Shown: one piece after another, positions 10,397-53,589 of the stretch
How positions within the stretch are numbered: position 1 is the stretch's first letter
Layout of the letters: every line of letters starts with the position of its first letter
From: Nitrospirales bacterium
GTDB lineage: Bacteria; Nitrospirota; Nitrospiria; Nitrospirales; UBA8639
NCBI GenBank assembly: GCA_963422365.1
Contig: OY729426.1
Location: forward strand, 2,431,696 to 2,495,695
Reading direction: 5' to 3'
DNA: 64,000 nucleotides
Translations under genes and position numbers: made by a program
Notes under the pieces: model-generated
Told to the model about the DNA's origin: nothing
What the model saw: only the letters and a program-made list of their open reading frames with translations
Database searches by the model: none

Positions 10397-10452
10397 GAGC
10401 TTGACGTTATCCTTTTTTCCTTAGTTATGACATCCATTGAGACCCAAATGAG

Positions 10453-11043: not shown

Positions 11044-11059
11044 TGACTCTCGCCCTTTC

Positions 11060-13880: not shown

Positions 13881-13997
13881 AGGTGAATCGAGGATAGCGT
13901 ATTCAAGCATACCCGAAAGGAACGAGCAAGTCAGAAGCGCCACCCTTTTTCCTCTTGATGCTCCAGCCCCATTGTCTCCATACTATTGGTGAATGTC

Positions 13998-14534: not shown

Positions 14535-14579
14535 CTCGTCGATTGCTGCTTTTCCACGCTACAAGTTCCGAACAACGGC

Positions 14580-15008
14580 TCACGAGGCCGCATAGACAAT
14601 CACTCCATACCGCGTTGCTTTACCAATGGCTATCCACAACAAGGCCTGAAGCCAATGAAGGCGGAGCCACCCACCGACCAAACACAGCGAATCCCCCACG
14701 ACAGGCACCCAAGACAAGATCAAGGCTGGGCTCCCCCATTGCCGCACCCATTGAAGAGGTCGGTGATACTTGGGTTGAGTGAAATGGTTGGCCGGATACC
14801 ACCAACCGAAAAAACATCCGACGCCCCACAGGCTCATCCCGCCCAACGTATTCCCTGCCGAGGCAACGCCCAAAAGGATCCATGGATCATACTCATCCTG
14901 GACGGCCAAGATCGCCAACACGGCCTCAGATCCACCAGGGAGAAGAGTCGAAGCAAGAAAGGCACTCAGAAACAAGACCCACAGGCCTGAACCGTCAATC
15001 GTCGTCAC
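14580..15008 (-). CDS. YqaA-family (DedA/VTT) membrane protein
   Basis: LFLSAFLASTLLPGGSE, GNTLG and SWVPVVGD motifs. Confidence 0.88.
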   Translation of the reverse strand: MTTIDGSGLWVLFLSAFLASTLLPGGSEAVLAILAVQDEYDPWILLGVASAGNTLGGMSLWGVGCFFGWWYPANHFTQPKYHRPLQWVRQWGSPALILSWVPVVGDSLCLVGGWLRLHWLQALLWIAIGKATRYGVIVYAAS

Positions 15009-15227
15009 ACCCTGTCATCATAGGATTGTGCAAAAGCCTGTGGATGGCAAGAGAGTCAGGGTGAGTGCCCGTTCATTGCGCCAACAAACCCGGCACCAGG
15101 ACGAGGATCTCGCCATCGTCACAAGACCTCGCTACACGCTCCACCAGCCTGGGAGTGCGCCTTGGCTTCTTGAAGACTTTGGAGAATCATTCGAGACATC
15201 CCAGCGCACGAGTAGTGTCAATACAAC

Positions 15228-15926
15228 CTAAAACAAGCCTTTTTCGATCCTGAAAATATCCGGATCCTTGGTATTTTCAATATAGGAGAGCCATAGTGAA
15301 GCAACCCGGTCCTGCGATTCGTCATTCTCGTCTCCTTCTCCCTCTGCAGCAGGCACCTTTCTACTGATAAGTTGCAGCAGCACCATTCGTTCCCGTTCGT
15401 CGGTTGCGCGAAAAACGACAAAAACGCTGTCGTCAAGGCGCGTGTTTATCAACGTCCTATCAGGAGCAAAGCCTAATGCACTGAAGTATTTTCGAATGAC
15501 GTTGGCGGTCGTTACCAACGCTTGTGGGTCCGGATCCTCGGTCACGGGCAATCCCCACAAAATATTAATCTGAATCAGTTTTTCTTGCTTGTAACCGTGA
15601 ATATAAACGACGCGAGCCGGTCCGCTGCCAGGGAAGAGGCCCGTCACAGTCGCCACCAGACTGGAAGTCCTGTCTTCGTCATTCGGCTGCACCACGATAT
15701 CTTCTTGCCCAAGCTGAAAATCGCGTTGTATGGCCTCCAGAGTTTTCGACTGCGACATCCCGAAGAGAGCCGAACGAAACCCCGTTATTTGGGGACCGAC
15801 GGCTTCTTTGATAGTCGTATTCTCTAGCGCCGCAAAACTCTCCGCATCAACGCATAAAATAGGCACTCCAGCCAAGACAGCAAGGGCAGCGACAATAAAC
15901 GCAGAGGTCCTAACCGTATCCATCAT
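15228..15926 (-). CDS. Hypothetical exported protein, third gene of TPS operon (copy 1)
   Basis: 232-aa ORF 18 bp after the tpsA stop, with an AGGGGG RBS-like run and hydrophobic N-terminal signal-like segment. Confidence 0.75.
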   Translation of the reverse strand: MMDTVRTSAFIVAALAVLAGVPILCVDAESFAALENTTIKEAVGPQITGFRSALFGMSQSKTLEAIQRDFQLGQEDIVVQPNDEDRTSSLVATVTGLFPGSGPARVVYIHGYKQEKLIQINILWGLPVTEDPDPQALVTTANVIRKYFSALGFAPDRTLINTRLDDSVFVVFRATDERERMVLLQLISRKVPAAEGEGDENDESQDRVASLWLSYIENTKDPDIFRIEKGLF

Positions 15927-15944
15927 AACCTGATTTCCCCCTAA

Positions 15945-18900
15945 CTATCGCTTATAGTGGTCTTCATCATTCCCACCATGCGTATTCATCATGGCATCCG
16001 TTCCGAGGTGCCTCCACACGTCTCGCATGCCACCGGGCAACGTATCGTAGATCGACTCCATTCCGGTTTGCGGTTTCAACAACGCAAATGGCATCTCAAA
16101 GACATTGACTGGATACGAACGATCCATTGCACCCATAACAGAAGCCCTCAATATCGGGGAGAACGGCAGAAAAACGACATCGCCTGGTGCCCCTCCCCAG
16201 CGCCATGTTGTATTCGGAAGCGGCAAAGCAGCCAGTTCTGCATATTGTCGTATCTCTGGTCCGATGCCGAGACTGGTGAAGTCATTCAATTTGTACATGC
16301 CTGGGACCTTGTTGCGGATTATAGTCTTACTGGCAGCACCCTGTCCGGCTTCACCGCCAACCGTACCCTTGATATCTACACTTTTTGCCTCAATCGTCAA
16401 AGAGTCAACTTCCACGGTCACGCCAATATGATTACTACTCTTTAACGTAACATCTTTCGCAATGATCCTTCCCTTGATATCTTTCGTGCTGACGTTGACA
16501 AAGGTATCGGAATAAAGGGTGCTGAATCCGAAATCACTTGTTCCGGTCCCCGCAAGCTGTTGGAAAGAAGTCACTCTCATCGAAGTGCCTACTGTGACGT
16601 CATGGGCCTTGGTGATCGTCATCGCCCCCAGTTTGGCAGTGGAGCCGACATCTCCCTCGAAATGTATAGTCCCGGTATCCGCGTCCAGGCTCAGCGCATA
16701 CCCGCCGTCGATCGTCGACGTGAACCGGATGTCGCCGTCCGTGCCGTCAGCGTTGGCGTCACTGTTGACCGTCACGGCCCCGGCTAACGTCACCGGGCCG
16801 GTGAAGGTCACGTGGCCGTCGTCACTGCGGTACGCCCCGGCCAGCGTGAGGCCCGTGGTGCCCGTCACATCCATGTCGCCCGTCGCCGTCACTGCAGCCA
16901 GCGCCACCGCGCCACCCGTCACCGTGAGGCTCGTTACCGCGGTCGTGCCACCCACCGCCCCGACCAGCGTGATCGCGCCGGTATCCGCGTCCAGGCTCAA
17001 CGCCTGCCCCCCGTCAATGGTCGACGTGAACCGGATGGCGCCAGCCGTGCTGTCAGCGTTGGCGTCACTGTTGACCGTCACGGCCCCGGCTAACGTCACC
17101 GGGCCGGTGAAGGTCACGTTACCATCGTCACTGCGGTACACCCCCGCCAGCGTGAGGCCCGTGGTGCCCGTCACATCCATGTCGCCCGTCGCCGTCACCG
17201 CAGCCAGCGCCACCGCGCCACCCGCCACCGTGAGGCTCGCCACCGCGGTGGTGCCACCCACCGCCCCGACCAGCGTGATCGCGCCGGTATCCGCATCCAG
17301 CACCAGCGCCTGCCCGCCGTCAATGGTCGACGTGAACCGGATGGCCCCGTCCGTGCCGTCGCCGTTGGCGTCACTGTTGACCGTCACGGCCCCGGCTAAC
17401 GTCACCGGGCCGGTGAAGGTCACGTCGCCGTCGTTACTGCGGTACGCCCCGGCCAGCGTGAGGCCCGTGCCCGTCACATCAATGTCGCCCGTCGCCGTCA
17501 CCGCAGCCAGCGCCACCGCGCCACCCCTCACCGTGAGGCTCGTTACCTTTACCGCCCCGGCCAGCGTGAGGCCCGCGATCCCCCTCACATCAACAGCCCC
17601 CGTCGCCGTCACCGCAGCCAGCAACACCGCGCCACCCGCCACCGTGAGGCTCGCCACCGGGGTGGTGCCACCCACCGCCCCGGCCAGCGTGATCGCGCCG
17701 GTATCCGCATCCAGCACCAGCGCCTGCCCGCCGTCAATGGTCGACGTGAACTCAATGGCCCCGTCCGTGCCGTCGCCGTTGGCGTCACTGTTGACCGTCA
17801 CGTCCCCGGCTAACGTCACCGGGCCGGTGAAGATCATGTTACCGTCGTCACTGCGGTACACCCCGGCCAGGGTGAGGCCCGTCCCCGTCACATCAATGTC
17901 GCCCGTCGCCGTCACCGCAGCCAACGCCACCGCGCCACCCGCCACCGTGAGGCTCGCCACCGCGGTGGTGCCACCCACCGCCCCGGCCAGCGTGATCGCG
18001 CCGGTATCCGCGTCCAGCGTCAGCGCATACCCCCCGTCGATCGTCGACGTGAACTCAATGTCGCCGGCTGTGCCGTCGCCGTCGGCGTCACTGTTGACCG
18101 TCACGTCCCCGGCTAACGTCACCGGGCCGGTGAAGGTAATAGTGCCGTCGTCACTGCTGTACTCCCCAGCCAGCGTGATGCCCGTCGTAGCCGTCACCAC
18201 CATGTTGCCCGTACCGGCTTCACCGCCAACCGTACCCTTGATATCTACACTTTTTGCCTCAATCGTCAAAGAGTCAACTTCCACGGTCACGCCAATATGA
18301 TTACTACTCTTTAACGTAACATCTTTCGCAATGATCCTTCCCTTGATATCTTTCGTGCTGACGTTGACAAAGGTATCGGAATAAAGGGTGCTGAATCCGA
18401 AATCACTTGTTCCGGTCCCCGCAAGCTGTTGGAAAGAAGTCACTCTCATCGAAGTGCCTACTGTGACGTCATGGGCCTTGGTGATCGTCATCGCCCCCAG
18501 TTTGGCAGTGGAGCCGACATCTCCCTCGAAATGTATAGTCCCGGTATCCGCGTCCAGGCTCAGCGCATACCCCCCGTCGATCGTCGACGTGAACCGGATG
18601 TCGCCGTCCGTGCCGTCAGCGTTGGCGTCACTGTTGACCGTCACGGCCCCGGCTAACGTCACCGGGCCGGTGAAGGTCACGTTACCATCGTCACTGCGGT
18701 ACGCCCCCGCCAGCGTGAGGCCCGTGCCCGTCACATCAATGTCGCCCGTCGCCGTCACTGCGGCCAGCGCCACCGCGCCACCCGTCACCGTGAGGCTCGT
18801 TACCGCGGTGGTGCCACCCACCGCCCCGGCCAATGTGATCGCGCCGGTATCCGCATCCAGGCTCAGCGCCTGCCCCCCGTCGATGGTCGACGTGAACTCA

Positions 18901-21900
18901 ATGGCGCCAGCCGTGCCGTCGCCGTTGGCGTCACTATTGACCGTCACGGCCCCGGCTAACGTCACCGGGCCGGTGAAGGTCACGTCGCCATCGTCACTGC
19001 GGTACGCCCCGGCCAGCGTGAGGCCCGTGCCCGTCACATCCATGTCGCCCGTCGCCGTCACCGCAGCCAGCGCCACCGCGCCACCCGTCACCGTGAGGCT
19101 CGCCACCGCGGTGGTGCCACCCACCGCCCCGACCAGCTGGATCGCGCCGGTATCCGCGTCCAGGCTCAGCGCCTGCCCCCCGTCGATGGTCGACGTGAAC
19201 CGGATGGCGCCGGCCGTGCCGTCAGCGTTGGCGTCACTGTTGACCGTCACGGCCCCGGCTAACGTCACCGGGCCGGTGAAGGTCACGTTACCATCGTCAC
19301 TGCGGTACACCCCCGCCAGCGTGAGGCCCGTGGTGCCCGTCACCGCCATGTCGCCCGTCGCCGTCACCGCAGCCAGCGCCACCGCGCCACCCCTCACCGT
19401 GAGGCTCGCCACCGGGGTCGTGCCACCCACCGCCCCGGCCAATGTGATCGCGCCGGTATCCGCATCCAGGCCAAGCGCATACCCCCCGTCGATCGTCGAC
19501 GTGAACTCAATGTCGCCGTCCGTGCCGTCAGTGTTGGCGTCACTGTTGACCCACACGAAGTCGGCTAACGTCACCGGGCCGGTGAAGGTCACGTGGCCGT
19601 CGTCACTGCGGTACGCCCCCGCCAGCGTGAGGCCCGTGCCCGTCACATCAATGTCGCCCGTCGCCGTCACCGCGGGCAGCGCCACCACCGCACCCGAGGT
19701 CGTCACCGTGAGGCTCGCCACCGCGGTGGTGCCACCCACCGCCCCGGCCAGCGTGATTGCACCGGTATCCGCGTCCAGCGTCAGCGCATACCCCCCGTCG
19801 ATCGTCGACGTAAACTCAATGCCGCCGTCCGTGCCGTCAGCGTTGGCGTCACTGTCGACCGTCACAGCCCCGGCTAACGTCACCGGGCCGGTGAAGGTCA
19901 CGTTACCATCGTCACTGCGGTACACCCCCGCCAGCGTGAGGCCCGTGCCCGTCACCGCCACGGCCCCCGTCGCCGTCACCCCAACCAGCGCCACCGCGCC
20001 ACCCGTCACCGTGAGGCTCGTTACCGCGGTCGTGCCACCCACCGCCCCGACCAGCGTGATCGCGCCGGTATCCGCGTCCAACTCCAGCACCTGCCCGCCG
20101 TCGATGGTCGACGTGAACTCAATGTCGCCGCCCGTGCCGTCAGCGTCGGCGTCACTGTTGACCCACACGAAGTTGGCTAACGTCACCGGGCCGGTGAAGG
20201 TCACGTTACCGTCATTCGAGAGCACGTTTCCCGCCAGCGTGAGGCCCGTCGCCGTCACATCAATGTCGCCCGTCGCCGTCACCGCAGCCAGCGCCACCGC
20301 GCCACCCCTCACCGTGAGGCTCGCCACCGGGGTCGTGCCACCCACCGCCCCAGCCAGCGTGATCGCGCCGGTATCCGCGTCCAGGCTCAACGCATACCCC
20401 CCGTCAATCGTCGACGTGAACTCAATGGCCCCAGCCGTGCCGTCGCCGTCGGCGTCACTGTTGACCGTCACGGCCCCGGCTAACGTCACCGGGCCGGTGA
20501 AGGTGATGTGGCCGTCGCTCGAGAGCACGTTTCCCGCCAGCGTGAGGCCTGTGCCCCTCACCGCCACAGCCCCCGTCGCCGTCACCGCGGGCAGCGCCAC
20601 CGCGCCCGAGGTCATCACCGTGAGGCTCGCCACCGCGGTGCTGCCACCCACCACCCCGGCCAGCCGGATCGCGCCGGTATCCGCGTCCAGGCTCAGCGCA
20701 TACCCCCCGTCAATCGTCGACGTGAACTCAATGGCGCCGTCCGTGCCGTCGTAGTCGGCGTCACTGTTGACCGTCACGGCCCCGGCTAACGTCACCGGGC
20801 CGGTGAAGGTGATGTGGCCGTCGCTCGAGAGCACGTTTCCCGCCAGCGTGAGGCCCATGCCCGTCACCGCCACAGCCCCCGTCGCCGTCACCGCAGCCAG
20901 CGCCACCGCGCCCGAGGTCGTCACCGTGAGGCTCGCCACCGCGGTGCTGCCACCCACCGCCCCGACCAGCCGGATCGCGCCGGTATCCGCGTCCAGGCTC
21001 AGCGCATACCCCCCGTCAATCGTCGACGTGAACCGGATGACCCCGTCCGTGCCGTCGTCGTTGGCGTCACTGTTGACCGTCACGGCCCCGGCTAACGTCA
21101 CCGGGCCGGTGAAGATCACGTTACCGTCATTCGAGAGCACGTTTCCCGCCAGCGTGAGGCCCGTCCCCGTCACCGCCACGGCCCCCGTCACCGTCACCGC
21201 AGCCAGCGACACCGCGCCACCCGTCACCGTGAGGCTCGTCACCGTGGTGGTGCCACCCACCGCCCCGGCCAGCGTGATCGTGCCGCTGCCAGCGGCCAGC
21301 GTCAGCGCATACCCCCCGTCGATGGTCGACGTGAACCGGATGTCGCCGTCCGTGCTGTCGTCGTTGGCGTCACTGTTGACCGTCACGGCCCCGGCTAACG
21401 TCACCGGGCCGGTGAAGATCACGTGGCCGTCGCTCGAGAGCACGTTTCCCGCCAGCGTGAGGCCTGTCGCCGTCACCGCTATGTTGCCCGTCGCCGTCAC
21501 CGCAGCCAGCGACACCGCGCCACCCGTCACCGTGAGGCTCGTTACCGCGGTGGCGCCACCCACCGCCCCGACCAGCGTGATCGCGCCGGTATCCGCGTCC
21601 AGGCTCAGCGCCTGCCCCCCGTCAATCGTCGACGTGAACCGGATGACCCCGTCCGTGCCGTCGTCGTCGGCGTCACTGTTGACCGTCACAGCCCCGGCTA
21701 ACGTCACCGGGCCGGTGAAGGTCACGTTACCATCGTCACTGCGGTACGCCCCCGCCAGCGTGATCCTCGTGGTGCCCGTCACCGCTATGTTCCCCGTCGC
21801 CGTCACCGCGGCCAGCGACACCGCGCCACCCGTCACCGTGAGGCTCGTTACCTCTACCACCCCGGCCAGCGTGAGGCCCGTGCCCGTCACCGCCACAGCC

Positions 21901-24900
21901 CCCGTCGCCCTCACCGCAGCCAGCGACACCGCGCCACCCGCCACCGTGAGGCTCGTTACCGCGGTGGTGCCACCCACCGCCCCGACCAGCGTGATCGCGC
22001 CGGTATCCGCGTCCAGCGTCAGCGCATACCCCCCGTCAATCGTCGACGTGAACCGGATGACCCCGTCCGTGCCGTCGTCGTTGGCGTCACTGTCCACTCG
22101 CACGGCCCCGGCTAACGTCACCGGGCCGGTGAAGATCACGTTACCATCGTCACTGCGGTACACCCCGGCCAGCGTGAGGCTCGTGGTGCCCGTCACCGCT
22201 ATGTTCCCCGTCGCCGTCACCGCGGCCAGCGACACCGCGCCACCCGTCACCGTGAGGCTCGTTACCTCTACCGCCCCGGCCAGCGTGAGGCCCGTGCCCG
22301 TCACCGCCACAGCCCCCGTCGCCGTCACCGCAGCCAGCGACACCGCGCCACCCGCCACCGTGAGGCTCGTTACCGCGGTGGTGCCACCCACCGCCCCGAC
22401 CAGCGTGATCGCGCCGGTATCCGCGTCCAGCGTCAGCGCATACCCCCCGTCAATCGTCGACGTGAACCGGATGACCCCGGCCGTGCCGTCGTCGTTGGCG
22501 TCACTGTCCACTCGCACGGCCCCGGCTAACGTCACCGGGCCGGTGAAGATCATGTTACCATCGTCACTCCGGTACACCCCCGCCAGCGTGAGGCCCGTGC
22601 CCCTCACATCAATGTCGCCCGTCGCCCTCACCCCGGCCAGCGCCACCGCGCCCGCGGTCACCACCGTGAGGCTCGTTACCGCGGTGGTGCCACCCACCGC
22701 CCCGACCAGCGTGATCGTGCCGGTATCCGCATCCAGCACCAGCGCCTGCCCCCCGTCAATCGTCGACGTGAACCGGATGGCCCCGTCCGTGCTGTCGCCG
22801 TTGGCGTCACTGTCCACTCGCACGGCCCCGGCTAACGTCACCGGGCCGGTGAAGGTCATGTTACCATCGTCACTCCGGTACGCCCCCGCCAGCGTGAGGC
22901 CCGTCCCCGTCACCGCCACGGCCCCCGTCGCCCTCACCCCGGCCAGCGCCACCGCTCCCCTGGTCGCCACCGTGAGGCTCGCCACCGCGGTCCTGCCACC
23001 CACCGCCCCGACCAGCGTGATCGCGCCGGTATCTGCATCCAGGCTCAGCGCATACCCCCCGTCAATGGTCGACGTGAACCGGATGGCCCCGTCCGTGCCG
23101 TCGTCGTTGGCGTCACTGTTGACCGTCACAGCCCCGGCTAACGTCACCGGGCCGGTGAAGGTCACGTGGCCGTCATTCGAGAGCACGTTTCCCGCCAGCG
23201 TGATGCCCGTGCCCGTCACCGCCACGGCCCCCGTCGCCGTCACCGCGGCCAGCGACACCGCTCTCCTGGTCGCCACCGTCAGGCTCGTTACCTCTACCGC
23301 CCCGGCCAGCGTGATGCCCGCGATCCCCCTCACATCAACAGCCCCCGTCGCCGTCACCGCAGCCAGCGACACCGCGCCACCCGTCACCGTGAGGCTCGCT
23401 ACCGGGGTCGTGCCACCCACCGCCCCGACCAGCGTGATCGCGTCGGTATCCGCGTCCAGGCTCAGCGCATACCCCCCGTCAATCGTCGACGTGAACCGGA
23501 CCCCGTCCGTACTGTCGTCGTCGGCGTCACTGTTGACCGTCACGGCCCCGGCTAACGTCACCGGGCCGGTGAAGGTCACCTTGCCGTCGTCACTCCGGTA
23601 CGCCCCCGCCAGCCTGAGGCCCGTGCCCGTCACCGCCACGTCGCCCGTCGCCGTCACCGCAGCCAGCGACACCGCGCCACTGGTCACCACCGTGAGGCTC
23701 GCCACCGCGGTCCTGCCACCCACCGCCCCAACCAGCGTGATCGCGCCGGTATCTGCATCCAGGCTCAGCGCCTGCCCCCCGTCAATCGTCGACGTGAACC
23801 GGATGGCGCCGTCCGTGCCGTCGTCGTCGGCGTCACTGTTGACCGTCACGGCCCCGGCTAACGTCACCGGGCCGGTGAAGATCATGTTACCATCGTCACT
23901 GCGGTACGCCCCCGCCAGCCTGAGGCCCGTGCCCGTCACCGCCACGGCCCCCGTCGCCGTCACCGCAGCCAGCGACACCGCGCCACCCGTCACCGTGAGG
24001 CTCGCCACCGCGGTGCTGCCACCCACCGCCCCGACCAGCCGGATCGCGCCGGTATCCGCGTCCAGCGTCAGCGCCTGCCCCCCGTTAATCGTCGACGTGA
24101 ACCGGATGACCCCGTCCGTGCCGTCGTCGTCGGCGTCGCTGTTGACCGTCACAGCCCCGGTTAACGTCACCGGGCCGGTGAAGGTGATGTTGCCGTCGCT
24201 CGAGAGTACGTTCCCCGCCAGCGTGATGCCCCTAGCCGTCACATCAATGTCGCCCGTCGCCGTCACCGCGAGCAGCGCCACCGCGCCCGAGGTCGTCACC
24301 GTGAGGCTCGCCACCGGGGTGCTGCCACCCACCCCGGCCAGCGTGATCGTGCCGGTATCCGCATCCAGCACCAGCGCCTGCCCCCCGTCGATGGTCGACG
24401 TGAACCGGATGGCCCCGTCCGTACTGTCGTCGTCAGCGTCACTGTCCACCGTCACGGCCCCGGTTAACGTCACCGGGCCGGTGAAGGTCATGTTACCATC
24501 GTCACTCCGGTACTCCCCCGCCAGCGTGAGGCCCGTCCCCGTCACCGCCACGGCCCCCGTCGCCGTCACCGCAGCCAGCGACACCGCGCCACCCGCCACC
24601 GTCAGGCTCGCTACCGCGGTGGTGCCACCCACCGCCCCGACCAGCGTGATCGCGCCGGTATCCGCGTCCAGGCTCAACGCCTGCCCGCCGTTGATGGTCG
24701 ACGTGAACTCAATGGCCCCGTCCGTACTGTCGTCGTTGGCGTCACTGTCCACCGTCACGGCCCCGGTTAACGTCACCGGGCCGGTGAAGGTGACGTGGCC
24801 GTCATCACTGCGGTACGCCCCTGCCAGCCTGATGCCCGTGCCCGTCACATCAATGTCGCCCGTCGCCGTCACCGCAGCCAGCGACACCGCGCCACCCGTC

Positions 24901-29924: not shown

Positions 29925-29944
29925 AGACCAATCTCCCTCTTCAG

Positions 29945-31700
<1,756 letters not shown>

Positions 31701-31758
31701 ACCCAGTTGTGTCTTATTGGAAGGCTTCCGCCCGTGTACACCATGTCCACCTTACAAT

Positions 31759-31792
31759 AGTTTAGGGGGGGGGGGTACTCAGGATATGTCAA
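31759..31792 (-). promoter_or_regulatory. Putative sigma70 promoter TTGACA-N22-TAAACT with a C11 tract in the spacer
   Basis: Minus strand reads TTGACA tatcctgagta CCCCCCCCCCC TAAACT, about 60 nt upstream of the tpsB ATG. Confidence 0.7.
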
Positions 31793-31842
31793 GTGTTCAC
31801 TCATAATTCAAACCCGCGCGCTTGTACGTCTCCCCCCATATG

Positions 31843-31951
31843 GGACGGCCAAGATCGCCAACACGGCCTCAGATCCACCAGGGAGAAGAGTCGAAGCAAG
31901 AAAGGCACTCAGAAACAAGACCCACAGGCCTGAACCGTCAATCGTCGTCAC
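31843..31951 (-). pseudogene. Truncated 5' fragment of the yqaA-family gene at the duplication junction
   Basis: Matches 14900-15008 (first ~36 codons), then runs into unrelated sequence and stops at 31808. Confidence 0.9.
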
Positions 31952-32170
31952 ACCCTGTCATCATAGGATTGTACAAAAGCCTGTGGATGACAAGAGAGTC
32001 AGGGTGAGTAGCCCGTTCATTGCGCCCAAAAAAAGGCACTAGGACGAGGATCTCGCCATCGTCACAGAACTCGCTAAACGCTCCACCAGCCTGGGAGTGC
32101 GCCTTGGCTTCTTGAAGACTTTTTGAGAATCATTCGAGACATCCCATCGCGCGAGTAGTGTCAATACAAC

Positions 32171-32869
32171 CTAAAACAAGCCTTTTTCGATCCTGAAAAT
32201 ATCCGGATCCTTGGTATTTTCAATATAGGAGAGCCATAGTGAAACAACCCGGTCCTGCGATTCGTCATTCTCGTCTCCTTCTCCCTCTGCGGCAGGCACC
32301 TTTCTACTGATAAGTTGCAGCAGCACCATTCGTTCCCGTTCATCGGTTGCGCGAAAAACGACAAAAACGCTGTCGTCAAGGCGCGTGTTTATCAACGTCC
32401 TATCAGGAGCAAAGCCTAATGCACTGAAGTATTTTCGAATGACGTTGGCGGTCGTTACCAGCGCTTGTGGGTCCGGATCCTCGGTCACGGGCAATCCCCA
32501 CAAAATATTAATCTGAATCAGTTTTTCTTGCTTGTAACCGTGAATATAAACGACTCGAGCCGGTCCGCTGCCAGGGAAGAGGCCCGTCACAGTCGCCACC
32601 AGACTGGAAGTCCTGTCTTCGTCATTCGGCTGCACCACGATATCTTCTTGTCCAAGCTGAAAATCGCGTTGTATGGCATCCAGAGTTTTCGACTGCGACA
32701 TCCCGAAGAGAGCCGAACGAAACCCCGTTATTTGGGGACCGACGGCTTCTTTGATAGTCGTATTCTCTAGCGCCGCAAAACTCTCCGCATCAACGCATAA
32801 AATAGGCACTCCAGCCAAGACAGCAAGGGCAGTGACAAGAAACGCAGAGGTCCTAACCGTATTCATCAT
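32171..32869 (-). CDS. Hypothetical exported protein, third gene of TPS operon (copy 2)
   Basis: 232 aa; five amino-acid differences from 15228-15926. Confidence 0.75.
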   Translation of the reverse strand: MMNTVRTSAFLVTALAVLAGVPILCVDAESFAALENTTIKEAVGPQITGFRSALFGMSQSKTLDAIQRDFQLGQEDIVVQPNDEDRTSSLVATVTGLFPGSGPARVVYIHGYKQEKLIQINILWGLPVTEDPDPQALVTTANVIRKYFSALGFAPDRTLINTRLDDSVFVVFRATDERERMVLLQLISRKVPAAEGEGDENDESQDRVVSLWLSYIENTKDPDIFRIEKGLF

Positions 32870-32887
32870 AACCTGATTTCCCCCTAA

Positions 32888-44800: not shown

Positions 44801-47800
44801 CGGTATCCGCGTCCAGCGTCAGCGCATACGCACCGTCGATGGTCGACGTGAACTCAATGTCGCCGGCCGTGCCGTCGGCGTCGGCGTCACTGTCCACCCG
44901 CACGGCCCCGGCTAACGTCACCGGGCCGGTAAAGGTGATGTTGCCGTCGTCACTGCGGTACGCCCCCGCCAGCGTGATGCCCGTGCCCGTCACCGCCACG
45001 GCCCCCGTCGCCGACACCGCGGCCAGCGCCACCGCGCCCGAGGTCGTCACCGTGAGGCTCGCCACCGGGGTGCCACCCACCGCCCCGGCCAGTGTGATCG
45101 CGCCGGTATCCGCGTCCAGGCTCAGCGCATACGCACCGTTGATGGTCGACGTGAACCGGATGTTACCATCCGCACCGCTGTCGTTTTGGTCACTGTTGAC
45201 CGTCACGGCCCCGGCTAACGTCACCGGGCCGGTAAAGGTGATGTTGCCGTCGTCACTGCGGTACGCCCCCGCCAGCGTGATGCCCGTGCCCGTCACCGCA
45301 ATGTCGCCCGTCGCCGTCACCGCGGCCAGCGACACCGCGCCACCCGTCACCGTGAGGCTCGCCACCGGGGTGCCACCCACCGCCCCGGCCAGTGTGATCG
45401 CGCCGGTATCCGCGTCCAGGCTCAGCGCATACGCACCGTTGATGGTCGACGTGAACCGGATGGCCCCGGCTGTGCCGCTGTCGTTTTGGTCACTGTTGAC
45501 CGTCACGGCCCCGGCTAACGTCACCGGGCCGGTAAAGGTGATGTTGCCGTCGTCACTGCGGTACGCCCCCGCCAGCGTGATGCCCGCGCTAGCCGTCACC
45601 GCCACGGCCCCCGTCGCCGACACCTCGGGCAGCACCACCCCCGCCGAGCCCGAGGTCGTCACCGTGAGGCTCGCCACCGGGGTGCCACCCACCGCCCCGG
45701 CCAGTGTGATCGCGCCGGTATCCGCGTCCAGGCTCAGCGCATACGCACCGTTGATGGTCGACGTGAACCGGATGGCCCCGTCCGCACCGCTGTCGTTTTG
45801 GTCACTGTTGACCGTCACGGCCCCGGCTAACGTCACCGGGCCGGTAAAGGTGATGTTGCCGTCGTCACTGCGGTACGCCCCCGCCAGCGTGATGCCCGTG
45901 CCCGTCACCGCAATGTTGCCCGTCGCCGTCACCGCGGCCAGCGACACCGCGCCCGAGGTCGTCACCGTGAGGCTCGCCACCGGGGTGCCACCCACCGCCC
46001 CGGCCAGTGTGATCGCGCCGGTATCCGCGTCCAGGCTCAGCGCATACGCACCGTTGATGGTCGACGTGAACCGGATGGCCCCGTCCGCACCGCTGTCGTT
46101 TTGGTCACTGTTGACCGTCACGGCCCCGGCTAACGTCACCGGGCCGGTAAAGGTGATGTTGCCGTCGTCACTGCGGTACGCCCCCGCCAGCGTGATGCCC
46201 GTGCCCGTCACCGCAATGTTGCCCGTCGCCGTCACCGCGGCCAGCGACACCGCGCCCGAGGTCGTCACCGTGAGGCTCGCCACCGGGGTGCCACCCACCG
46301 CCCCGGCCAGTGTGATCGCGCCGGTATCCGCGTCCAGGCTCAGCGCATACGCACCGTTGATGGTCGACGTGAACCGGATGTTACCATCCGCACCGCTGTC
46401 GTTTTGGTCACTGTTGACCGTCACGGCCCCGGCTAACGTCACCGGGCCGGTAAAGGTGATGTTGCCGTCGTCACTGCGGTACGCCCCCGCCAGCGTGATG
46501 CCCGTGCCCGTCACCGCAATGTCGCCCGTCGCCGTCACCGCGGCCAGCGACACCGCGCCACCCGTCACCGTGAGGCTCGCCACCGGGGTGCCACCCACCG
46601 CCCCGGCCAGTGTGATCGCGCCGGTATCCGCGTCCAGGCTCAGCGCATACGCACCGTTGATGGTCGACGTGAACCGGATGGCCCCGGCTGTGCCGCTGTC
46701 GTTTTGGTCACTGTTGACCGTCACGGCCCCGGCTAACGTCACCGGGCCGGTAAAGGTGATGTTGCCGTCGTCACTGCGGTACGCCCCCGCCAGCGTGATG
46801 CCCGTGCCCGTCACCGCAATGTTGCCCGTCGCCGTCACCGCGGCCAGCGACACCGCGCCCGAGGTCGTCACCGTGAGGCTCGCCACCGGGGTACCACCCA
46901 CCGCCCCGGCCAGTGTGATCGCGCCGGTATCCGCGTCCAGGCTCAGCGCATACGCACCGTTGATGGTCGACGTGAACCGGATGTTACCATCCGCACCGCT
47001 GTCGTTTTGGTCACTGTTGACCGTCACGGCCCCGGCTAACGTCACCGGGCCGGTAAAGGTGATGTTGCCGTCGTCACTGCGGTACGCCCCCGCCAGCGTG
47101 ATGCCCGTGCCCGTCACCGCAATGTCGCCCGTCGCCGTCACCGCGGCCAGCGACACCGCGCCACCCGTCACCGTGAGGCTCGCCACCGGGGTGCCACCCA
47201 CCGCCCCGGCCAGTGTGATCGCGCCGGTATCCGCGTCCAGGCTCAGCGCATACGCACCGTTGATGGTCGACGTGAACCGGATGGCCCCGGCTGTGCCGCT
47301 GTCGTTTTGGTCACTGTTGACCGTCACGGCCCCGGCTAACGTCACCGGGCCGGTAAAGGTGACCGGGCCGGTAAAGGTGATGTTGCCGTCGTCACTGCGG
47401 TACGCCCCCGCCAGCGTGATGCCCGTGCCCGTCACCGCAATGTTGCCCGTCGCCGTCACCGCGGCCAGCGACACCGCGCCACCCGTCACCGTGAGGCTCG
47501 CCACCGGGGTACCACCCACCGCCCCGGCCAGTGTGATCGCGCCGGTATCCGCGTCCAGGCTCAGCGCATACGCACCGTTGATGGTCGACGTGAACCGGAT
47601 GTTACCATCCGCACCGCTGTCGTTTTGGTCACTGTTGACCGTCACGGCCCCGGCTAACGTCACCGGGCCGGTAAAGGTGATGTTGCCGTCGTCACTGCGG
47701 TACGCCCCCGCCAGCGTGATGCCCGTGCCCGTCACCGCAATGTCGCCCGTCGCCGTCACCGCGGCCAGCGACACCGCGCCACCCGTCACCGTGAGGCTCG

Positions 47801-50800
47801 CCACCGGGGTGCCACCCACCGCCCCGGCCAGTGTGATCGCGCCGGTATCCGCGTCCAGGCTCAGCGTCTGCCCGCCGTCAATGGTCGACGTGAACCGGAT
47901 GGCCCCGGCTGTGCCGCTGTCGTTTTGGTCACTGTTGACCGTCACGGCCCCGGCTAACGTCACCGGGCCGGTAAAGGTGATGTTGCCGTCGTCACTGCGG
48001 TACGCCCCCGCCAGCGTGATGCCCGTGCCCGTCACCGCAATGTTGCCCGTCGCCGTCACCGCGGCCAGCGACACCGCGCCACCCGTCACCGTGAGGCTCG
48101 CCACCGGGGTACCACCCACCGCCCCGGCCAGTGTGATCGCGCCGGTATCCGCGTCCAGGCTCAGCGCATACGCACCGTTGATGGTCGACGTGAACCGGAT
48201 GTTACCATCCGCACCGCTGTCGTTTTGGTCACTGTTGACCGTCACGGCCCCGGCTAACGTCACCGGGCCGGTAAAGGTGATGTTGCCGTCGTCACTGCGG
48301 TACGCCCCCGCCAGCGTGATGCCCGTGCCCGTCACCGCAATGTCGCCCGTCGCCGTCACCGCGGCCAGCGACACCGCGCCACCCGTCACCGTGAGGCTCG
48401 CCACCGGGGTGCCACCCACCGCCCCGGCCAGTGTGATCGCGCCGGTATCCGCGTCCAGGCTCAGCGTCTGCCCGCCGTCAATGGTCGACGTGAACCGGAT
48501 GGCCCCGGCTGTGCCGCTGTCGTTTTGGTCACTGTTGACCGTCACGGCCCCGGCTAACGTCACCGGGCCGGTAAAGGTGATGTTGCCGTCGTTCGAGAGC
48601 ACGTTTCCCGCCAGGGTGATGCCCGTGCCCCTCACATCAATGTTGCCCGTCGCCGCCACTGCGACCAGCGACACCGCGCCACCCAACACCGTGAGGCTCG
48701 TCACCGGGGTAGTGTCACCCACCGCCCCGTCCAGCGTGATCGCGCCGGTATCCGCGTCCAGGCTCAGCGCCTGCCCGCCGTCGATGGTCGACGTGAACTC
48801 AATGTCGCCGGCCGTGCCGTCGCCGTCGTCGTCACTACTGACGTACACTTCCCCAGCTAACGTCACCGGGCCGGTGAAGGTGATGTTACCATCGTCACTG
48901 CTGTATGCCCCTGCCAGCGTGATACCCCTAGCCGTCACCGCCACGGCCCCCGTCGCCGACACCGCGGGCAGCACCACCACCGCGCCCGAGGTTGTCACCG
49001 TGAGGCTCGCCACCGGGGTGGTGCCACCCACCTCCCCGCCCAGCGTGATCGCGCCGGTATCCGCGTCCAACTCCAGCGCCTGCCCGCCGTCGATGGTCGA
49101 CGTGAACTCAATGGCCCCGTCCGTGTTGTCGTCGTCGGCGTCACTGTCCACCCGCACGTCCCAGCGTAACGTCACCGGGCCGGTGAAGGTCACGTTGCCG
49201 TCGTTCGAGAGCACGTCCCCTGCCAGCGTGATGCCCGTGCCCGTCACCGCCACGGCCCCCGTCGCCGACACCGCGACCAGCGACACCGCGCCACCCGTCA
49301 CCGTGAGGCTCGTCACCTCTGTCGTCCTGACACCCACCGCCCCGTCCAGCGTGATCGCGCCGGTATCCGCGTCCAGCGTCAGCGCCTGCCCGCCGTCGAT
49401 GGTCGACGTGAACTCAATGGCCCCGTCCGTGTTGTCGTCGTCGGCGTCACTGTCCACCCGCACGTCCCCGGTTAACGTCACCGGGCCGGTGAAGGTGATG
49501 TTGCCGTCGCTCGTTGCAATGTCTGCGGCCAGCGTGATTGTGCCGCTGGAATTCACAACAAGTGATGCACTGCCGCCAATGCTCAGCGATTCGCCTACTG
49601 TGATAGCGGACGCCACAATCGAACTGCCGGCCTGGCCGGTACCGGTCGGGCCTGTGGTCGCTGTGCCGATGATGATGGACCCGGAAGTGACAAACCTCCC
49701 TATTTCCGCATTGCTGAGATTGCCAGCCCCAGCAGAAATTGTCATCAGGACGGATTGGGACGGCGCCACATGTATGTCTCCCGTTCCGGCGTCTATGCTA
49801 CTGGCGAGGTCAATCGCGAACCCGGCGCCAATCAGCGTGACGTCGCCGTTGTTGGAGGTAATGGAACCACTGCTGCCAATCGTCAGTGTTCCGATGCCGT
49901 CGTTATTACCTGACCTCGGCGAGTCCGCTTCAAATATAAAATTGTGTGCGCCGTTGGTGCCGGTAATGGCAGCATTGATTGTCAGATGACGCCCTGCCTG
50001 CAGGCTCAGGGTGCTGCTTGAACTACCGCTCCTGTCGATAGGAGAACTGACTGTCATGTCCCGCTGCGCTTGAAGGGTGACATCTCCATCGATGGCTTCG
50101 AATGCCACAGGCTGAATGTTATAATCGTTGCTATCGGAGCCGAAACTGATCTCGCCGTCGGCGGACACCTCATTGTTATTGGTTCCATCCCCATCGGAAA
50201 TGGTGATATCCCTCGGGTCCAGGAGCAACTCGCCGGCTGAGCCGCCTGGCGCACGCAGATCGACCGCGGCTGCGGCAAATTGCAGATGACGCTTGCCCGA
50301 TACTTCCGCAAAACCGCCATCGCCGGAATGGGTGCCACCGCGAGCGGAAATGCTCCCCAAAAAGCGAGTTACCCGTTCCGACCAAACGATGACTTTGCCC
50401 CCGTTGCCGGTGCCGGTGGCGTCGGCCCGGATTGTCACGTCGCCGCCAACCGTGGCGTATTCGGCGTTGCGCTCCGGTCCCTTGCCCTGGAAATTGCCGC
50501 CAATCAGGGTCGTGCCGCCGCCAGAATGCCCGGACGCATCGATCTTGGCCTGCTCAACGACGCCGACTTTCTCGCCCAGCACTTTCACGCTGCCACCGGT
50601 CTCACCTCGCCCCTTGCCGGAAGCGTCCAGCTTGCCGGCGACCCGGACGATGCCCTCGCCATTGCCCAGCAGTTGAATGTGGCCGTTGCGCATTCCCACT
50701 GAGCGCGCTTCGACGATGCCGTCCATGTTGATGACGCGGTCAACCACGTCCTTCGCCGCACTGGCTGCCAGCCACACGGCTCCGCCGTCGGCATTGATCG

Positions 50801-51563
50801 TGCCGCTGTTGTCAACCAGCGCTGCCAGAGGGGCTCCATCGGGGGCCGTCAGGCGCTCGGCCACGCGGTCATCAACCCTGAGCCGGATCAAGCTGTCGCC
50901 GTGGAGATCAAACGTGAAGGCATTGCCCGAAGCCAGCGCAACACGACCGAGCCGGGCGCGAATCACCCCGCTGTTCTCGACGCCGGGTGCCACCAGCGCT
51001 ACCAAGCCGCCTTCGGCTGCGGTGATCCTGCCGCGGTTGACGACCGTCCCGCCAGGATTATGGTTGATAGCAAAGTTGAAACGACCGGCCATGAAGTCTT
51101 CATTGCGGATATCGATCGTTGTCGCGACCAGGCCGGCGACGTCCACCACGGCGGTTTTGCCGAACAGGATGCCATTCGGGTTGAGCAGCATGACCCGGCC
51201 GTTGGCGGTCAGCTTCCCGAGAAGATTGGAGTACGAATCGCCCCTGACCCGGTTCAGCGTCATCGAAGAAGCGGACGGCTGCCGAAAGTGGGTATGCTCG
51301 TCCACGTCAATCGAGAACGAACGCCAATCGATGACGGCGTTGGCGGAGCGCTGGTTGATATCAAGACGATTGGGCGTGGACTGTACGATGTCAGCCCCGC
51401 CGGCAATCACCTTGCCGTCCTTCGGCATTGCCTGCACCAGCCCGCCGGCCGTCAGCACCCCGCAAGACAGGGCCAACAGCAGTACGAGAAATGTCAATCG
51501 CCGACCAGAGATTCCATGATGGGCCTCGCTGATTCGCTCCGCAACATTAGGGAAAGCCGTCAT
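32888..51563 (-). CDS. Giant TpsA exoprotein (copy 2), about 6222 aa if repaired; split by a 7-nt insertion at 40152-40158
   Basis: ORFs 40125-51563 and 32888-40174 join in frame once gggtagt is removed; first ~670 aa are identical to copy 1 and the C-terminus is nearly identical. Confidence 0.9.
33613..49540 (-). repeat. Array of roughly 50 ~300-303-bp coding repeats in tpsA copy 2
   Basis: Same FTGPVTL/FTSTIDGG unit; includes near-exact higher-order duplications; count estimated from length. Confidence 0.93.
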
Positions 51564-51583
51564 AGACCAATCTCCCTCTTCAG

Positions 51584-53321
51584 CTAAAAGCGCGCCGTGA
51601 AGGTGAAGAATACGCGCCGCGAGTCGACATCAATCGTTCGCGAGTCAGTTTTTTTGATCAGCGGCCAGGCGATCTCAAATGACCCTGACAGGTGATCAGT
51701 GAAATTCAAACGAACGCCACCGCCTGCCGACGCCAGCTGCGTGTTTTCATCCAGCACCAGCGCACCAGGGTCCTTCCGCCACACTCCGCCGATATCGGAG
51801 AAGCCGTATAGCTGATACCCCTCCACCAGAGCCGAGGCGCCGAGATTGTGCCCGTAGCGCAGTTCCCCGAGAAGGCAGCCCCCCTGGTCGCCTGTCACTT
51901 CCGAGGGGTCGTACGCTCGGCCACAGCGCTCGCCCCCAATCCCGAATTCCTCCGACGCCAGCAGCTTGGACAACGCATACTGGGACGTGAAATTGGCAAA
52001 CAGTGACCAGTGGCTGCTGATCCGTTGCAGGCGCGATAGAGTCAACTGGAACTTGGTGAAGTTTGTACGCCCTTTCTGGCGCGACAGTTCCGTCGAGCCG
52101 TTACTCGATGCACCCAAAATGCTCATCCCCTGGTTGAGGTCCAGCCCAAGCCGATTCACGCCGCCGAAACGGTCCACGGAATCATACAGCACGCCTACCC
52201 TGATAAAGCGCAGATGATCTCTTGACAGCCGCGCGCCGAAAATGGTGGTCTCGCTGTTGCGAGCCACAAATTCGGCATACAGCGAGACATTCTTTGCGCG
52301 CGAGCGGATGACAGGGGTGGTGCCCCCCACCCGAAAGGCGTGGGACTTGCTTTCGATGTGCAGCTTCTTCAGCGTATACCCAGGCTCCGACTCCGTGCGG
52401 GTCACTTGAAGGTACAGCTTCTCGCCGTCAGTGCCGATTTGACGCTCATGCCCGACCTCATAATACCTCAACTCATCCGGCTGCTGGGCGACGACGACTC
52501 TTCCCGTTATTCGATCATAATAGCCGGACAGCGAGTTGACCCCCGCCCCCAGCCACGCCTGATAGGGACCGTTGAATTTGCTGCCACGGTTGTCAACGCG
52601 CATAAAGCCATCCGCCAGAGTGTCCTTGATATCAATGATCAGTTCCGAGGCACCCGGCGTCTCCTTGGCCGCGCCTATCACTGCCTGCGACGTGACGCCG
52701 GGCAGATCGTTGAAAAGCAGCAGATAGCGCTCCAGTACATCGATAGTCAGCGGACGTGCACTCTTGATCTTATTGGCGTAGGCATCGAGTAGCAAACGCC
52801 GGCCACCATGTACCTCGCCTTCAATCCGTACCGCATTGATGTACCCTTCCACAACCCGGATCCGAACGACCCCCTCGGTAATCGTCTGCGGCGGCAACAG
52901 CGCCCGTGACAGGACATAGCCGTCGTTTCGGTACTTGGCCGTGATCGCCTCGGCAATATCGAACACGGAAGCGAGCGAAATTTCCTGGCCAAGCTGCTCT
53001 TCGTACAGAGATACTAACTCTGCTTCTGAATAAACAGTCGAGCCTTCCACAACCACCTCTGTCAGATCTACAGTGATCTCTCCCTCTTCCTCTGCCGATC
53101 TCCTGCGCTCGGCCTCGGGGATTAAGAACTCGGGAGTCGACCTTGGCACCGCAGGCATCTGCAAGTACTGCTCGATCTGACCGGGGGCTGTTTTAGGGGG
53201 GGGGGGGGGGGGGGGATTGTGCCTTCACTTTGCCTGCCGGAGATATCACGGCACAAAGCGCAACAGCGAAAAACGTAGACAGCCAGATGTAGAAACGATG
53301 GGAGAGAACTAGAAAACCCAT
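51584..53321 (-). CDS. ShlB/FhaC/HecB-family TpsB transporter (copy 2), out of frame at a C20 tract
   Basis: 526-aa body identical to copy 1; signal peptide MGFLVLSHRFYIWLSTFFAVALCAVISPAGKVKA starts at ATG 53321 and is one base out of frame. Confidence 0.9.
53196..53215 (-). repeat. G20 (C20 on coding strand) homopolymer inside tpsB copy 2
   Basis: Direct count of 20 G in the same flanking context as copy 1. Confidence 0.9.
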
Positions 53322-53364
53322 AAGATCTTGACGGACACGTGTCGTACGACTACTCAATCAGATA

Positions 53365-53404
53365 ATTATAAAAAAATATAAACGAAAAAGGAATGAATAG
53401 TCAA
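53365..53404 (-). promoter_or_regulatory. Putative sigma70 promoter for tpsB copy 2 (TTGACT-N18-TATATT, with a further TATAAT downstream)
   Basis: AT-rich upstream region; hexamers at 53399-53404, 53375-53380 and 53365-53370. Confidence 0.5.
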
Positions 53405-53589
53405 TCGTTTTGTAGACAATGGATGAGTCCCCTTTTTATGCAGGATGCGCTTTCTGGAATGATGCAAGCTGAAGCCACTGATTCATAAGTCAGCCTTCCG
53501 GTCCTGCTACCCGTATTTTCTTCGACAAGGCCCTCCCCCGATCACGGTTTTTTTTGACTCTCCTGATGCCGACGTTTTATAGTCAATGA

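What the first reader, a model, noticed from the sequence alone, without database searches (positions are those of the whole stretch)
14900..53404. Twin giant two-partner-secretion loci forming a candidate multi-layer phase-variable surface-protein system
Seen: two tandem tpsB-tpsA-orf232 operons (~38 kb) with identical secretion machinery and TPS domains but different repeat stalks (4659 vs ~6222 aa). Each has a coding poly-C tract in tpsB, and copy 1 has a promoter-spacer poly-C tract. Known: homopolymer slippage switches surface genes in pathogens (Neisseria porA/opc promoters, Bordetella fim promoters). Inference: this organism could stochastically display a short filament, a long filament, both or neither. 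Because the TPS domains are identical, either TpsB should export either TpsA, so the switches would combine. I do not know of this architecture in a Nitrospirota-like environmental organism.
Basis: partly seen in the sequence, partly recalled or inferred. Interest (0 to 1): 0.85.

Follow-up and report, generated by a model that had tools for sequence, protein, structure and literature searches.

The report
Twin giant adhesins with slippery transporter
A nitrite-oxidising bacterium carries two side-by-side copies of a borrowed export system for giant thread-like surface proteins, and a long run of C's at the start of each transporter gene likely switches export on and off at random, a trick well known from pathogens but here in a probable animal symbiont.

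Summary
The two tpsB-tpsA-orf232 units are real. Short-read contigs bridge the junction, and the shared part has 1.8-2.0 times the depth of unique DNA. The tpsA2 frameshift is an assembly error (TpsA1 4,659 aa; TpsA2 about 6,220 aa). The 38-kb block is an insertion, absent from 24 of 24 congeners searched, whose named close relatives are in Proteobacteria. One of those already has three tandem tpsA-orf232 pairs behind a single tpsB, so twin filaments sharing a transporter are not new. Special here is the poly-C tract at codon 36 of tpsB, found in 0 of 80 related loci. It is one of eight runs of 15 or more C, all in envelope genes. The assembly reads C38/41 and C20 (out of frame); two short-read runs read C19 (in frame), and a third lists C19 and C18. 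Slippage switching is likely, but sequencing error is not excluded. The C11 'promoter switch' has a 22-nt spacer and did not vary. Identical transporters give OR logic (both or neither); 'short only' or 'long only' needs untested polarity or recombination. Closest known: HMW1/HMW2 and EtpBAC. The scan noted similar poly-G/C sets before, in sponge archaea.

The parts
15176..53487 (.). Inserted block holding both TPS units; replaces about 320 bp of the empty site in the closest congener
   Evidence: Congener G001 matches window 13798-15175 and 53488-54232 with a 322-nt gap; nudix and glmS lie 2.3-3.5 kb apart in 5 of 5 congeners against about 40 kb here
14580..15008 (-). Host VTT/YqaA-type gene downstream of unit 1
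   Evidence: Pfam PF09335 weak hit, E 5e-5; region conserved in congeners
15228..15926 (-). orf232 copy 1: uncharacterised protein with a hydrophobic N-terminus and an alpha/beta domain; follows every tpsA of this family that was examined
   Evidence: No Pfam; 68 hits, own included; one copy after each tpsA C-terminus in G041, G043, G044, G045; model pLDDT 80.6, best structural match Z 8.0
15945..29924 (-). tpsA1, 4,659 aa: signal peptide, TPS domain, about 35 repeats of ~101 aa, a twice-present cap segment, conserved 170-aa tail
   Evidence: Pfam TPS E 2e-35; best solved relative EtpA E 1e-74; repeats; tail conserved across homologues
29945..31700 (-). tpsB1 (578 aa if the tract is C19); split by the tract as assembled
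   Evidence: Pfam POTRA_2 and ShlB; frames; homologues mostly 550-600 aa with a signal peptide
31557..31594 (-). Coding poly-C tract of tpsB1: C38 here, C41 in the overlap copy, C19 in run X1 (inferred from 19 gaps)
31702..31842 (.). Unique 141-nt junction between the units, with no other match in the genome and no likeness to the unit-2 upstream region
   Evidence: bridged by contigs in X1 and X2
31759..31792 (-). TTGACA - 22 nt including C11 (31765-31775) - TAAACT; would need C5-C7 for a 16-18 nt spacer
   Evidence: sequence; not called by the promoter scan; C11 unchanged in X1, X2 and the overlap copy
31843..32117 (-). Duplicated host DNA (copy of 14900-15175): upstream region, promoter-like site TCCACA-16-TATGAT (31987-31960) and truncated 5' end of the VTT/YqaA gene; shows that the duplication took place in this lineage
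32171..32869 (-). orf232 copy 2 (97.8% identical protein)
32888..51563 (-). tpsA2, about 6,216-6,222 aa, about 51 repeats; the split at 40152-40158 is a consensus error
51584..53321 (-). tpsB2 (578 aa if the tract is C19)
53196..53215 (-). Coding poly-C tract of tpsB2: C20 in both assembly versions; C19 in X3; C19 and C18 listed in X4
53375..53404 (-). Sigma-70-like promoter of unit 2 (TTGACT-18-TATATT), no tract
   Evidence: a consensus match only (2 found, 1.0 expected)

Best explanation
This is a tandemly duplicated two-partner secretion module (transporter, giant repeat protein, small partner gene), most likely acquired sideways, whose transporter gene carries a poly-C tract that likely works as a slipped-strand on/off switch. 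At 3n+1 C's (C19) the signal peptide is joined to the transporter; at other lengths translation stops within a few codons. Because the two transporters and the two secretion domains are identical, one in-frame tpsB would export both filaments (predicted), so the two tracts most likely act as an OR gate on display of both filaments, not as four independent states. The filaments are predicted beta-helical adhesins or spacers about 100 and 140 nm long (inferred from repeat number and a recalled rise of 4.8 A per ~20 residues). The tract appears to be the host lineage's habit laid on a foreign gene: relatives of the module lack it, and the host has six other long coding C-runs in envelope genes.
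For: Shown: gene anatomy and frames; junction contigs and about 2:1 depth in runs of two studies (the tool warns that contig depth is no copy number); empty site in congeners; TpsB not found in 24 of 24 congeners with this query, orf232 in 1 of 400 other genomes of the phylum; TpsB nests with Rhodospirillales, Alphaproteobacteria and Arenicellales sequences at SH-like support 99, far from same-order TpsBs. Tract: longest C/G run at most 8 in 80 of 80 related tpsB loci; C19 gives 7 residues between Q and K, the same as the closest homologue P0002; lengths seen are 18, 19, 20, 38 and 41, and the two paralogous tracts differ by 18-21 bases inside 808 nt and about 85 nt of identical flank; 8 of 8 runs of 15 or more are C on the coding strand of envelope genes, 7 near my chosen start codons, 5 out of frame as assembled, with two fibronectin-III-protein paralogues in opposite frames; runs of 14 or more in 15 of 24 congeners against 2 of 16 genomes of other families. 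Shared transporter: G044 has one tpsB and three tandem tpsA-orf232 pairs (5,038, 7,993 and 1,217 codons). G exceeds C in 11 of 16 windows of the tpsB message after the stop, which is poor ground for Rho.
Against: No raw reads cover the locus (0 reads laid from X12 and X13), so there is no within-population length distribution. The two runs that span the tract in a single contig both read C19, in frame, and show no long allele; one of them may be the sample the assembly came from, in which case C20 is a one-base consensus error and C38/41 is either unreadable by short reads or wrong (38 is exactly 2 x 19). The C18 depth in X4 (82.1) equals the sum of two records that lack the left flank, so it may be an alignment effect; polymerase stutter also gives such ladders. 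The assembly is error-prone here (about 40 one-base indels at 53.7-64 kb), which also weakens the genome-wide frame count. The junction piece has only about half the single-copy depth in X3 and X4 (34.6 vs 71.5; 133.9 vs 258.8), which I cannot explain firmly. Only 5 of 20 tract loci fetched from related genomes lay at or just before the start of a recognisable surface-type gene; 6 lay at contig ends or gaps. Rho is present, so polarity is possible. Adhesin function, expression and host association were not tested.
Confidence: 0.55

Rival explanations
1. Four-state display: an out-of-frame tpsB leaves 1.6 kb of untranslated message, Rho cuts off the downstream tpsA, and each tract switches its own unit, giving short, long, both or neither. 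Recombination between the identical 5' parts or the similar 3' parts could also delete one unit.
For: Tract is in the first gene of each operon; Rho is intact; each unit has its own promoter-like sites; 3.6 kb of near-perfect direct repeat.
Against: G-rich message after the stop; an in-frame ATG 35 nt after the stop could restart translation; tpsA has its own ribosome-binding-like site; shared depth of 1.8-2.0 leaves little room for collapsed chromosomes.
Confidence: 0.2
2. The tracts are constant, in-frame proline linkers (C19, SPPPPPP) in nature; the out-of-frame lengths are long-read consensus errors, and both filaments are made constitutively.
For: C19 in X1 and X3 as one unbranched contig; homologues have short Pro-rich linkers at this place; many indel errors in this assembly; 38 = 2 x 19.
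Against: Unit 1 is about twice as long as unit 2 in both assembly versions despite identical flanks; a proline linker need not use only CCC codons; MutS is present but 19-base runs are highly mutable even with mismatch repair (established knowledge, recalled); placement of long runs only in envelope genes.
Confidence: 0.15
3. The runs are products of a lineage-wide mutational drift towards C/G runs in weakly constrained accessory genes; slippage happens but is decay, not an adapted switch.
For: Genus-wide excess of runs, some in an IS integrase, a radical-SAM gene or intergenic DNA; an earlier unchecked note reports G-flooding in a gene-converted stretch of this genome.
Against: 8 of 8 longest runs here sit in envelope genes on one strand, 7 near the 5' end; tpsB is otherwise intact and C19 is the common allele in the runs.
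Confidence: 0.08
4. The out-of-frame state is leaky: at 3n+2 the stop sits in CCC-UAA, a context recalled as a +1 ribosomal frameshift site, so a little TpsB is made and the tract tunes rather than switches.
For: All four assembled lengths (38, 41, 20, 20) put the stop in CCC-UAA with the transporter in the +1 frame.
Against: Short-read contigs give the in-frame length, so no recoding is needed; the motif is recalled, not checked.
Confidence: 0.02

Closest known systems
HMW1/HMW2 (hmw1ABC, hmw2ABC) of non-typeable Haemophilus influenzae (PMC10127715 and bioRxiv 10.1101/744037, passages read)
   Same: Two three-gene TPS loci in one genome, transporters 97-99% identical, different passengers, expression varied by slipped-strand changes in simple repeats; HMW1 secretion domain is among the solved relatives (2odl, E 9e-36).
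   Different: HMW loci lie about 400 kb apart, use 7-bp promoter repeats giving graded expression, have 120-125 kDa adhesins and a cytoplasmic glycosyltransferase as third gene. Here the loci are tandem, the repeat is a homopolymer in the transporter's coding sequence, the passengers are 4,659 and about 6,220 aa, and the third gene is unrelated.
EtpBAC of enterotoxigenic E. coli (PDB 8vba; PMC5422565, passages read)
   Same: Best solved relative of the TpsA N-terminal 600 residues (E 1e-74); operon named in the order B-A-third gene.
   Different: Single copy, 1,564-residue construct in PDB, reported as iron-regulated; EtpC as a glycosyltransferase is recalled, not checked; no tract known to me.
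One TpsB serving several TpsAs, e.g. LspB with LspA1/LspA2 of Haemophilus ducreyi (PMC5422565, passages read)
   Same: The review states that some TpsBs secrete more than one TpsA; two large passengers in one genome.
   Different: That LspB exports both LspAs is recalled; control there is by CpxRA and Fis, not by a homopolymer.
Poly-G/C contingency loci of Campylobacter, Neisseria and Helicobacter (search listings and abstract starts)
   Same: Long G/C runs near the 5' end of surface and glycan genes that shift the frame.
   Different: Those are pathogens with runs mostly of 8-15 (recalled); here runs of 15-40 in a nitrite oxidiser.
Unnamed tpsB-giant tpsA-orf232 family of Arenicellales and Rhodospirillales MAGs (found here)
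   Same: Same gene order, same ~101-aa repeat, same tail and third gene; passengers of 2,800-8,000 aa; tandem multi-copy arrays.
   Different: No homopolymer tracts; arrays repeat tpsA-orf232 only, whereas here tpsB is duplicated too.

Membership tests
Two-partner secretion (type Vb) | TpsB with POTRA and ShlB/FhaC barrel domains | tested here: met
   PF08479 E 1e-21, PF03865 E 3e-21
Two-partner secretion (type Vb) | TpsA with signal peptide and N-terminal TPS domain, encoded next to tpsB | tested here: met
   PF05860 E 2e-35 at residues 57-303; 20 nt after tpsB; signal peptide judged by eye
Two-partner secretion (type Vb) | Beta-helical passenger | tested here: inconclusive
   Single-sequence model of the last 518 residues shows strands every 6-7 residues but mean pLDDT 49.9; no Foldseek match at E 0.001
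Two-partner secretion (type Vb) | Export of TpsA through TpsB | not testable with these tools
   needs experiment
HMW/Etp-type glycosylated adhesin loci | HMW1/HxuA/EtpA-like secretion domain | tested here: met
   The 5 PDB sequences matched are EtpA, HMW1 and HxuA
HMW/Etp-type glycosylated adhesin loci | Third gene encodes an HMW1C-type glycosyltransferase | tested here: not met
   orf232 is 232 aa with no Pfam family and a small alpha/beta model
CDI (cdiBAI) toxin systems | Polymorphic C-terminal toxin domain with a polymorphic immunity gene | tested here: not met
   Tail is 35-58% identical across homologues and 96% between copies; orf232 is conserved at 30-79%; no toxin family in the last 518 residues
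CDI (cdiBAI) toxin systems | Third gene folds like a known immunity protein | tested here: inconclusive
   Best rows YdcD Z 8.0 (rmsd 3.7, 117 aligned), DUF4309 Z 7.8, RhsI1 Z 6.9 (rmsd 4.8, 126 aligned); within background
Homopolymer contingency loci (translational phase variation) | Long G/C run near the 5' end of a surface gene whose length sets the frame | tested here: met
   codon 36 of both tpsB genes; 3n+1 in frame
Homopolymer contingency loci (translational phase variation) | Length differs between copies, samples or cells | tested here: inconclusive
   18, 19, 20, 38, 41 seen, but from consensus and contig data only
Homopolymer contingency loci (translational phase variation) | Reversible, high-frequency change of the protein's presence | not testable with these tools
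   needs reporter or population data
Promoter-spacer homopolymer switches (porA, fim; recalled) | Run lies in a spacer within one or two bases of 16-18 nt, and its length varies | tested here: not met
   22-nt spacer; C11 in both assembly versions, X1 and X2; X3 junction contig has the same length, 217

The most novel reading that the evidence does not exclude
A probable animal-symbiotic nitrite oxidiser has a genus-wide poly-C switch set and has placed it on a newly acquired, undescribed family of giant TPS filaments. Each tract shuts its whole operon by polarity, so single cells show a 100-nm filament, a 140-nm filament, both or none, with orf232 as a dedicated one-per-filament partner.
Probability: 0.2. 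Interest if true: 0.72.

Novelty: new variant of a known kind. Interest (0 to 1): 0.5.

Why it matters
If the switch is real, pathogen-style phase variation extends to a chemolithoautotrophic nitrifier that probably lives in an animal, and acts on the transporter rather than the adhesin, which none of my searches found described. It also shows a foreign gene gaining the switch type of its new host. The family of giant TpsA proteins with a conserved unknown third gene, shared by unrelated bacteria, is a concrete lead for how such symbionts attach or keep their distance. The architecture itself (twin TPS loci, shared transporter, repeat-driven variation) has clear precedents, which limits the surprise.

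Tried and rejected
Raw-read runs X12 and X13 laid no read on the locus: no test. No RNA holder was listed. X7 does not cover the tract; in X2 the contig stops inside it. Single-protein scans of genome contigs and metagenome contigs found no relative; the alignment scan did. Complex prediction of the TpsA tail with orf232 gave no answer (score 0.00), which is no evidence either way. Foldseek found nothing at E 0.001 for orf232 or the tail; the Atlas gave only unnamed clusters. The cluster look-up could not be made, so the taxon rests on NxrB and on an earlier unchecked note. Haplotype co-assembly rejected. A real frameshift in tpsA2 rejected. Loss of MutS as cause of the runs rejected (945-codon open frame; MutL not checked). 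CDI toxin reading rejected. The control is the same string as the pattern and says nothing. The first tree did not finish and was redone by FastTree with 46 rows. Literature: no paper held 'sponge, Nitrospira, two-partner secretion, symbiont'; the 2 papers with 'two-partner secretion, phase variation, homopolymeric tract, TpsB' were one read in passages without a tract in tpsB (PMC4202330) and one seen only as a listing (PMC6211672); searches listed nothing on tract switching in Nitrospirales or in a tpsB by title or abstract start; PMC3848433 passages did not concern a tpsB tract; PMC11812461 has no 'secretion', 'adhes' or 'phase vari' in its main text. No supplements were read; they may bear on the last claim.
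Full report
Anatomy. The minus strand holds two units, each tpsB - tpsA - orf232. TpsB has POTRA_2 and ShlB domains. TpsA has a TPS domain whose best solved relatives are EtpA, HMW1 and HxuA, then about 35 (unit 1) or about 51 (unit 2) repeats of ~101 residues rich in T, G, A and V, a cap segment present twice, and a 170-residue tail. The first 670 residues of the two TpsAs are identical; repeat units are on average 77-79% identical within and between copies, with no identical pair between copies among 26 and 45 standard-length units. About 3.65 kb covering tpsB and the TPS domain differ by one base apart from the tract, while the 3' parts differ by 2-4%. This suggests an older duplication with later homogenisation of the 5' part (inference).

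Assembly quality. The genome is one 2.50-Mb contig with an untrimmed 58-kb terminal overlap, so the locus exists in two consensus versions. The 7-nt insertion that splits tpsA2 in the window is absent from the other version, which has a 2-nt insertion elsewhere and lacks an 18-nt duplication. TpsA2 is therefore most likely one protein of 6,216-6,222 aa. About 40 one-base indels at 53.7-64 kb break glmS, glmU and other housekeeping genes in the window; glmS and glmU are whole in the other version, and short-read contigs confirm two of these as window errors.

The duplication is real. In runs X1 and X2 a 217-nt contig crosses 31656-31872 without a difference, and the alternative joins at both ends are also present. 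Depth of the shared tpsB part over unique upstream DNA is 33.1/17.9, 128.6/71.5 and 513.4/258.8 in X2, X3 and X4; the tool warns that contig depth is no copy number. The junction piece itself has only about half the single-copy depth in X3 and X4; loss of reads after G-runs is a possible reason, not shown. X1, X3 and X4 are one study and X2 another; any one may be the source sample. The differences listed for X2 are all alleles of the other unit (compare), not strain differences.

Origin. In 5 of 5 congeners the nudix and glmS genes that flank the locus lie 2.3-3.5 kb apart; the closest one places the insertion at 15176-53487. This TpsB was not found in 24 of 24 congeners, and orf232 in only 1 of 400 other genomes of the phylum, again beside a tpsA. 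The TpsB tree puts the window's protein among Rhodospirillales, Alphaproteobacteria and Arenicellales MAG sequences, far from same-order TpsBs (46 rows, FastTree, midpoint root, so no donor is named). The duplicated stretch includes 275 nt of host DNA with the 5' end of the VTT/YqaA gene, so the doubling happened after arrival. The genome encodes a nitrite-oxidoreductase beta subunit (E 1.6e-176 to PDB 7b04). Family UBA8639 comes from an earlier unchecked note. Life in a sponge or other animal is my inference, from that family, the genome size (lineage IVb averages 2.44 Mb; PMC11812461, passages) and a very large Hi-C library from the same sample as X2.

The family. Nineteen proteins of 2,810-7,993 aa, two from this genome, share the N-terminus and repeat at 55% identity or more. 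In four named MAGs every tpsA tail examined (8 of 8) is followed by orf232; G044 has one tpsB and three tandem tpsA-orf232 pairs, plus a further pair elsewhere. Tandem filaments of different length behind a shared transporter are thus a family trait. The tail and orf232 are conserved, not polymorphic, which argues against a CDI toxin-immunity pair. orf232 has no known family; its model is confident but matches nothing above background.

The coding tracts. Each follows the signal peptide at codon 36. A length of 3n+1 is in frame; C19 gives a 578-aa TpsB with the same local spacing as the closest homologue. The assembly reads C38 and C41 for unit 1 and C20 twice for unit 2, all out of frame. X1 (19 gaps against C38) and X3 read C19 in one unbranched contig; X4 lists C19 at depth 68 and C18 at 82, the latter doubtful; X2 is unresolved. 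So the commonest allele in the short-read data is ON. C20 may be a one-base consensus error. The roughly doubled tract of unit 1, inside identical flanks and in both versions, is harder to blame on error but is not confirmed by short reads. No related locus has such a run (longest C/G run 8 in 80 of 80). In the host, 8 runs of 15 or more occur against 0.008 expected; all are C on the coding strand of envelope genes: tpsB twice, three fibronectin-III or Ig surface proteins, a GT2 glycosyltransferase, a UbiA/HAD prenyltransferase and a YidC-sulfatase fusion; 7 are near my chosen start codons and 5 are out of frame as assembled. Runs of 14 or more occur in 15 of 24 congeners and 2 of 16 genomes of other families, but of 20 such loci fetched from related genomes only 5 sat at or just before the start of a recognisable surface-type gene and 6 lay at contig ends or gaps. 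MutS is intact.

The promoter tract. TTGACA and TAAACT are 22 nt apart; four to six C's would have to go. C11 is unchanged wherever it could be read. A copied host promoter-like site lies about 260 nt upstream of tpsB1. I find no support for this layer.

How it most likely works. Shown: frames, identity of the export parts, duplication, foreign affinity. Inferred: slippage at the tract turns TpsB on or off; either TpsB exports either TpsA; the result is an OR gate, with the second copy raising the share of displaying cells. Single-filament states need polarity (Rho is present, but G exceeds C in 11 of 16 windows after the stop) or deletion by recombination. Poly-proline length may also tune in-frame output (recalled EF-P dependence). 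Filament lengths of about 100 and 140 nm rest on a recalled helical rise and a low-confidence model.

Comparison and verdict. HMW1/HMW2 already combine twin three-gene TPS loci, 97-99% identical transporters and repeat-driven variation (passages); a review notes that some TpsBs export several TpsAs (passages). Neisseria porA and Bordetella fim are recalled, not checked. The searches named under Tried and rejected found no homopolymer switch in a tpsB and none in Nitrospirales; supplements were not read. Earlier notes of this scan describe poly-G/C sets in sponge archaea and other genomes. It is a TPS system; it works like a contingency locus; it is not an HMW/Etp glycosylated locus or a CDI system. 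New variant of a known kind, interest 0.5.

Noticed in passing
G000:C1:1-58333 and window 5648-64000: Untrimmed 58-kb terminal overlap of a circular contig; genes in it are counted twice, and the window's last 10 kb carry about 40 one-base indels that break glmS, glmU, tmk and metG.
   Followed up: yes
G000:C1:891249, 940703, 1396855, 1666590, 1777124, 1964137 (L112-L117): Six further coding poly-C runs of 15-28 in fibronectin-III/Ig surface proteins, a GT2, a UbiA/HAD protein and a YidC-sulfatase fusion; two surface-protein paralogues share a 5' end but carry C19-T-C12 (in frame) and C17-T-C10 (out of frame).
   Followed up: partly
L136:1909-1922 and L140:1985-1998 (G020, G006): The same lipoprotein-like gene carries a C14 run right after its probable start in two congeners, out of frame in both.
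   Followed up: no
L096-L098 (G044:C1:3091224-3140900): One tpsB followed by three tandem tpsA-orf232 pairs of 5,038, 7,993 and 1,217 codons in an Arenicellales MAG; six family members sit on contigs of one length, 9,228,841.
   Followed up: partly
window 15228-15926; L034:1254-1787; G303:C2:1689546-1690160: orf232 is an unnamed family tied to TPS loci even in distant forms (upstream of tpsB in a Nitrospina MAG, tail to tail with tpsA in G303).
   Followed up: partly
window 5967-11656: Gene run for an aminotransferase, a nucleotidyltransferase, two TPP-enzyme halves, a CDP-alcohol phosphotransferase and an LPG-synthase-type membrane protein; by recall this looks like a phosphonate or phospholipid surface-modification cluster next to the insertion.
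   Followed up: no
whole genome: No A/T run exceeds 9 while C/G runs reach 38; most long C-runs are preceded by TA or AT.
   Followed up: no
window 53500-54170, + strand: A 193-codon host gene, conserved at the empty site in congeners, is broken in the window by two one-base errors and whole in the overlap copy.
   Followed up: partly
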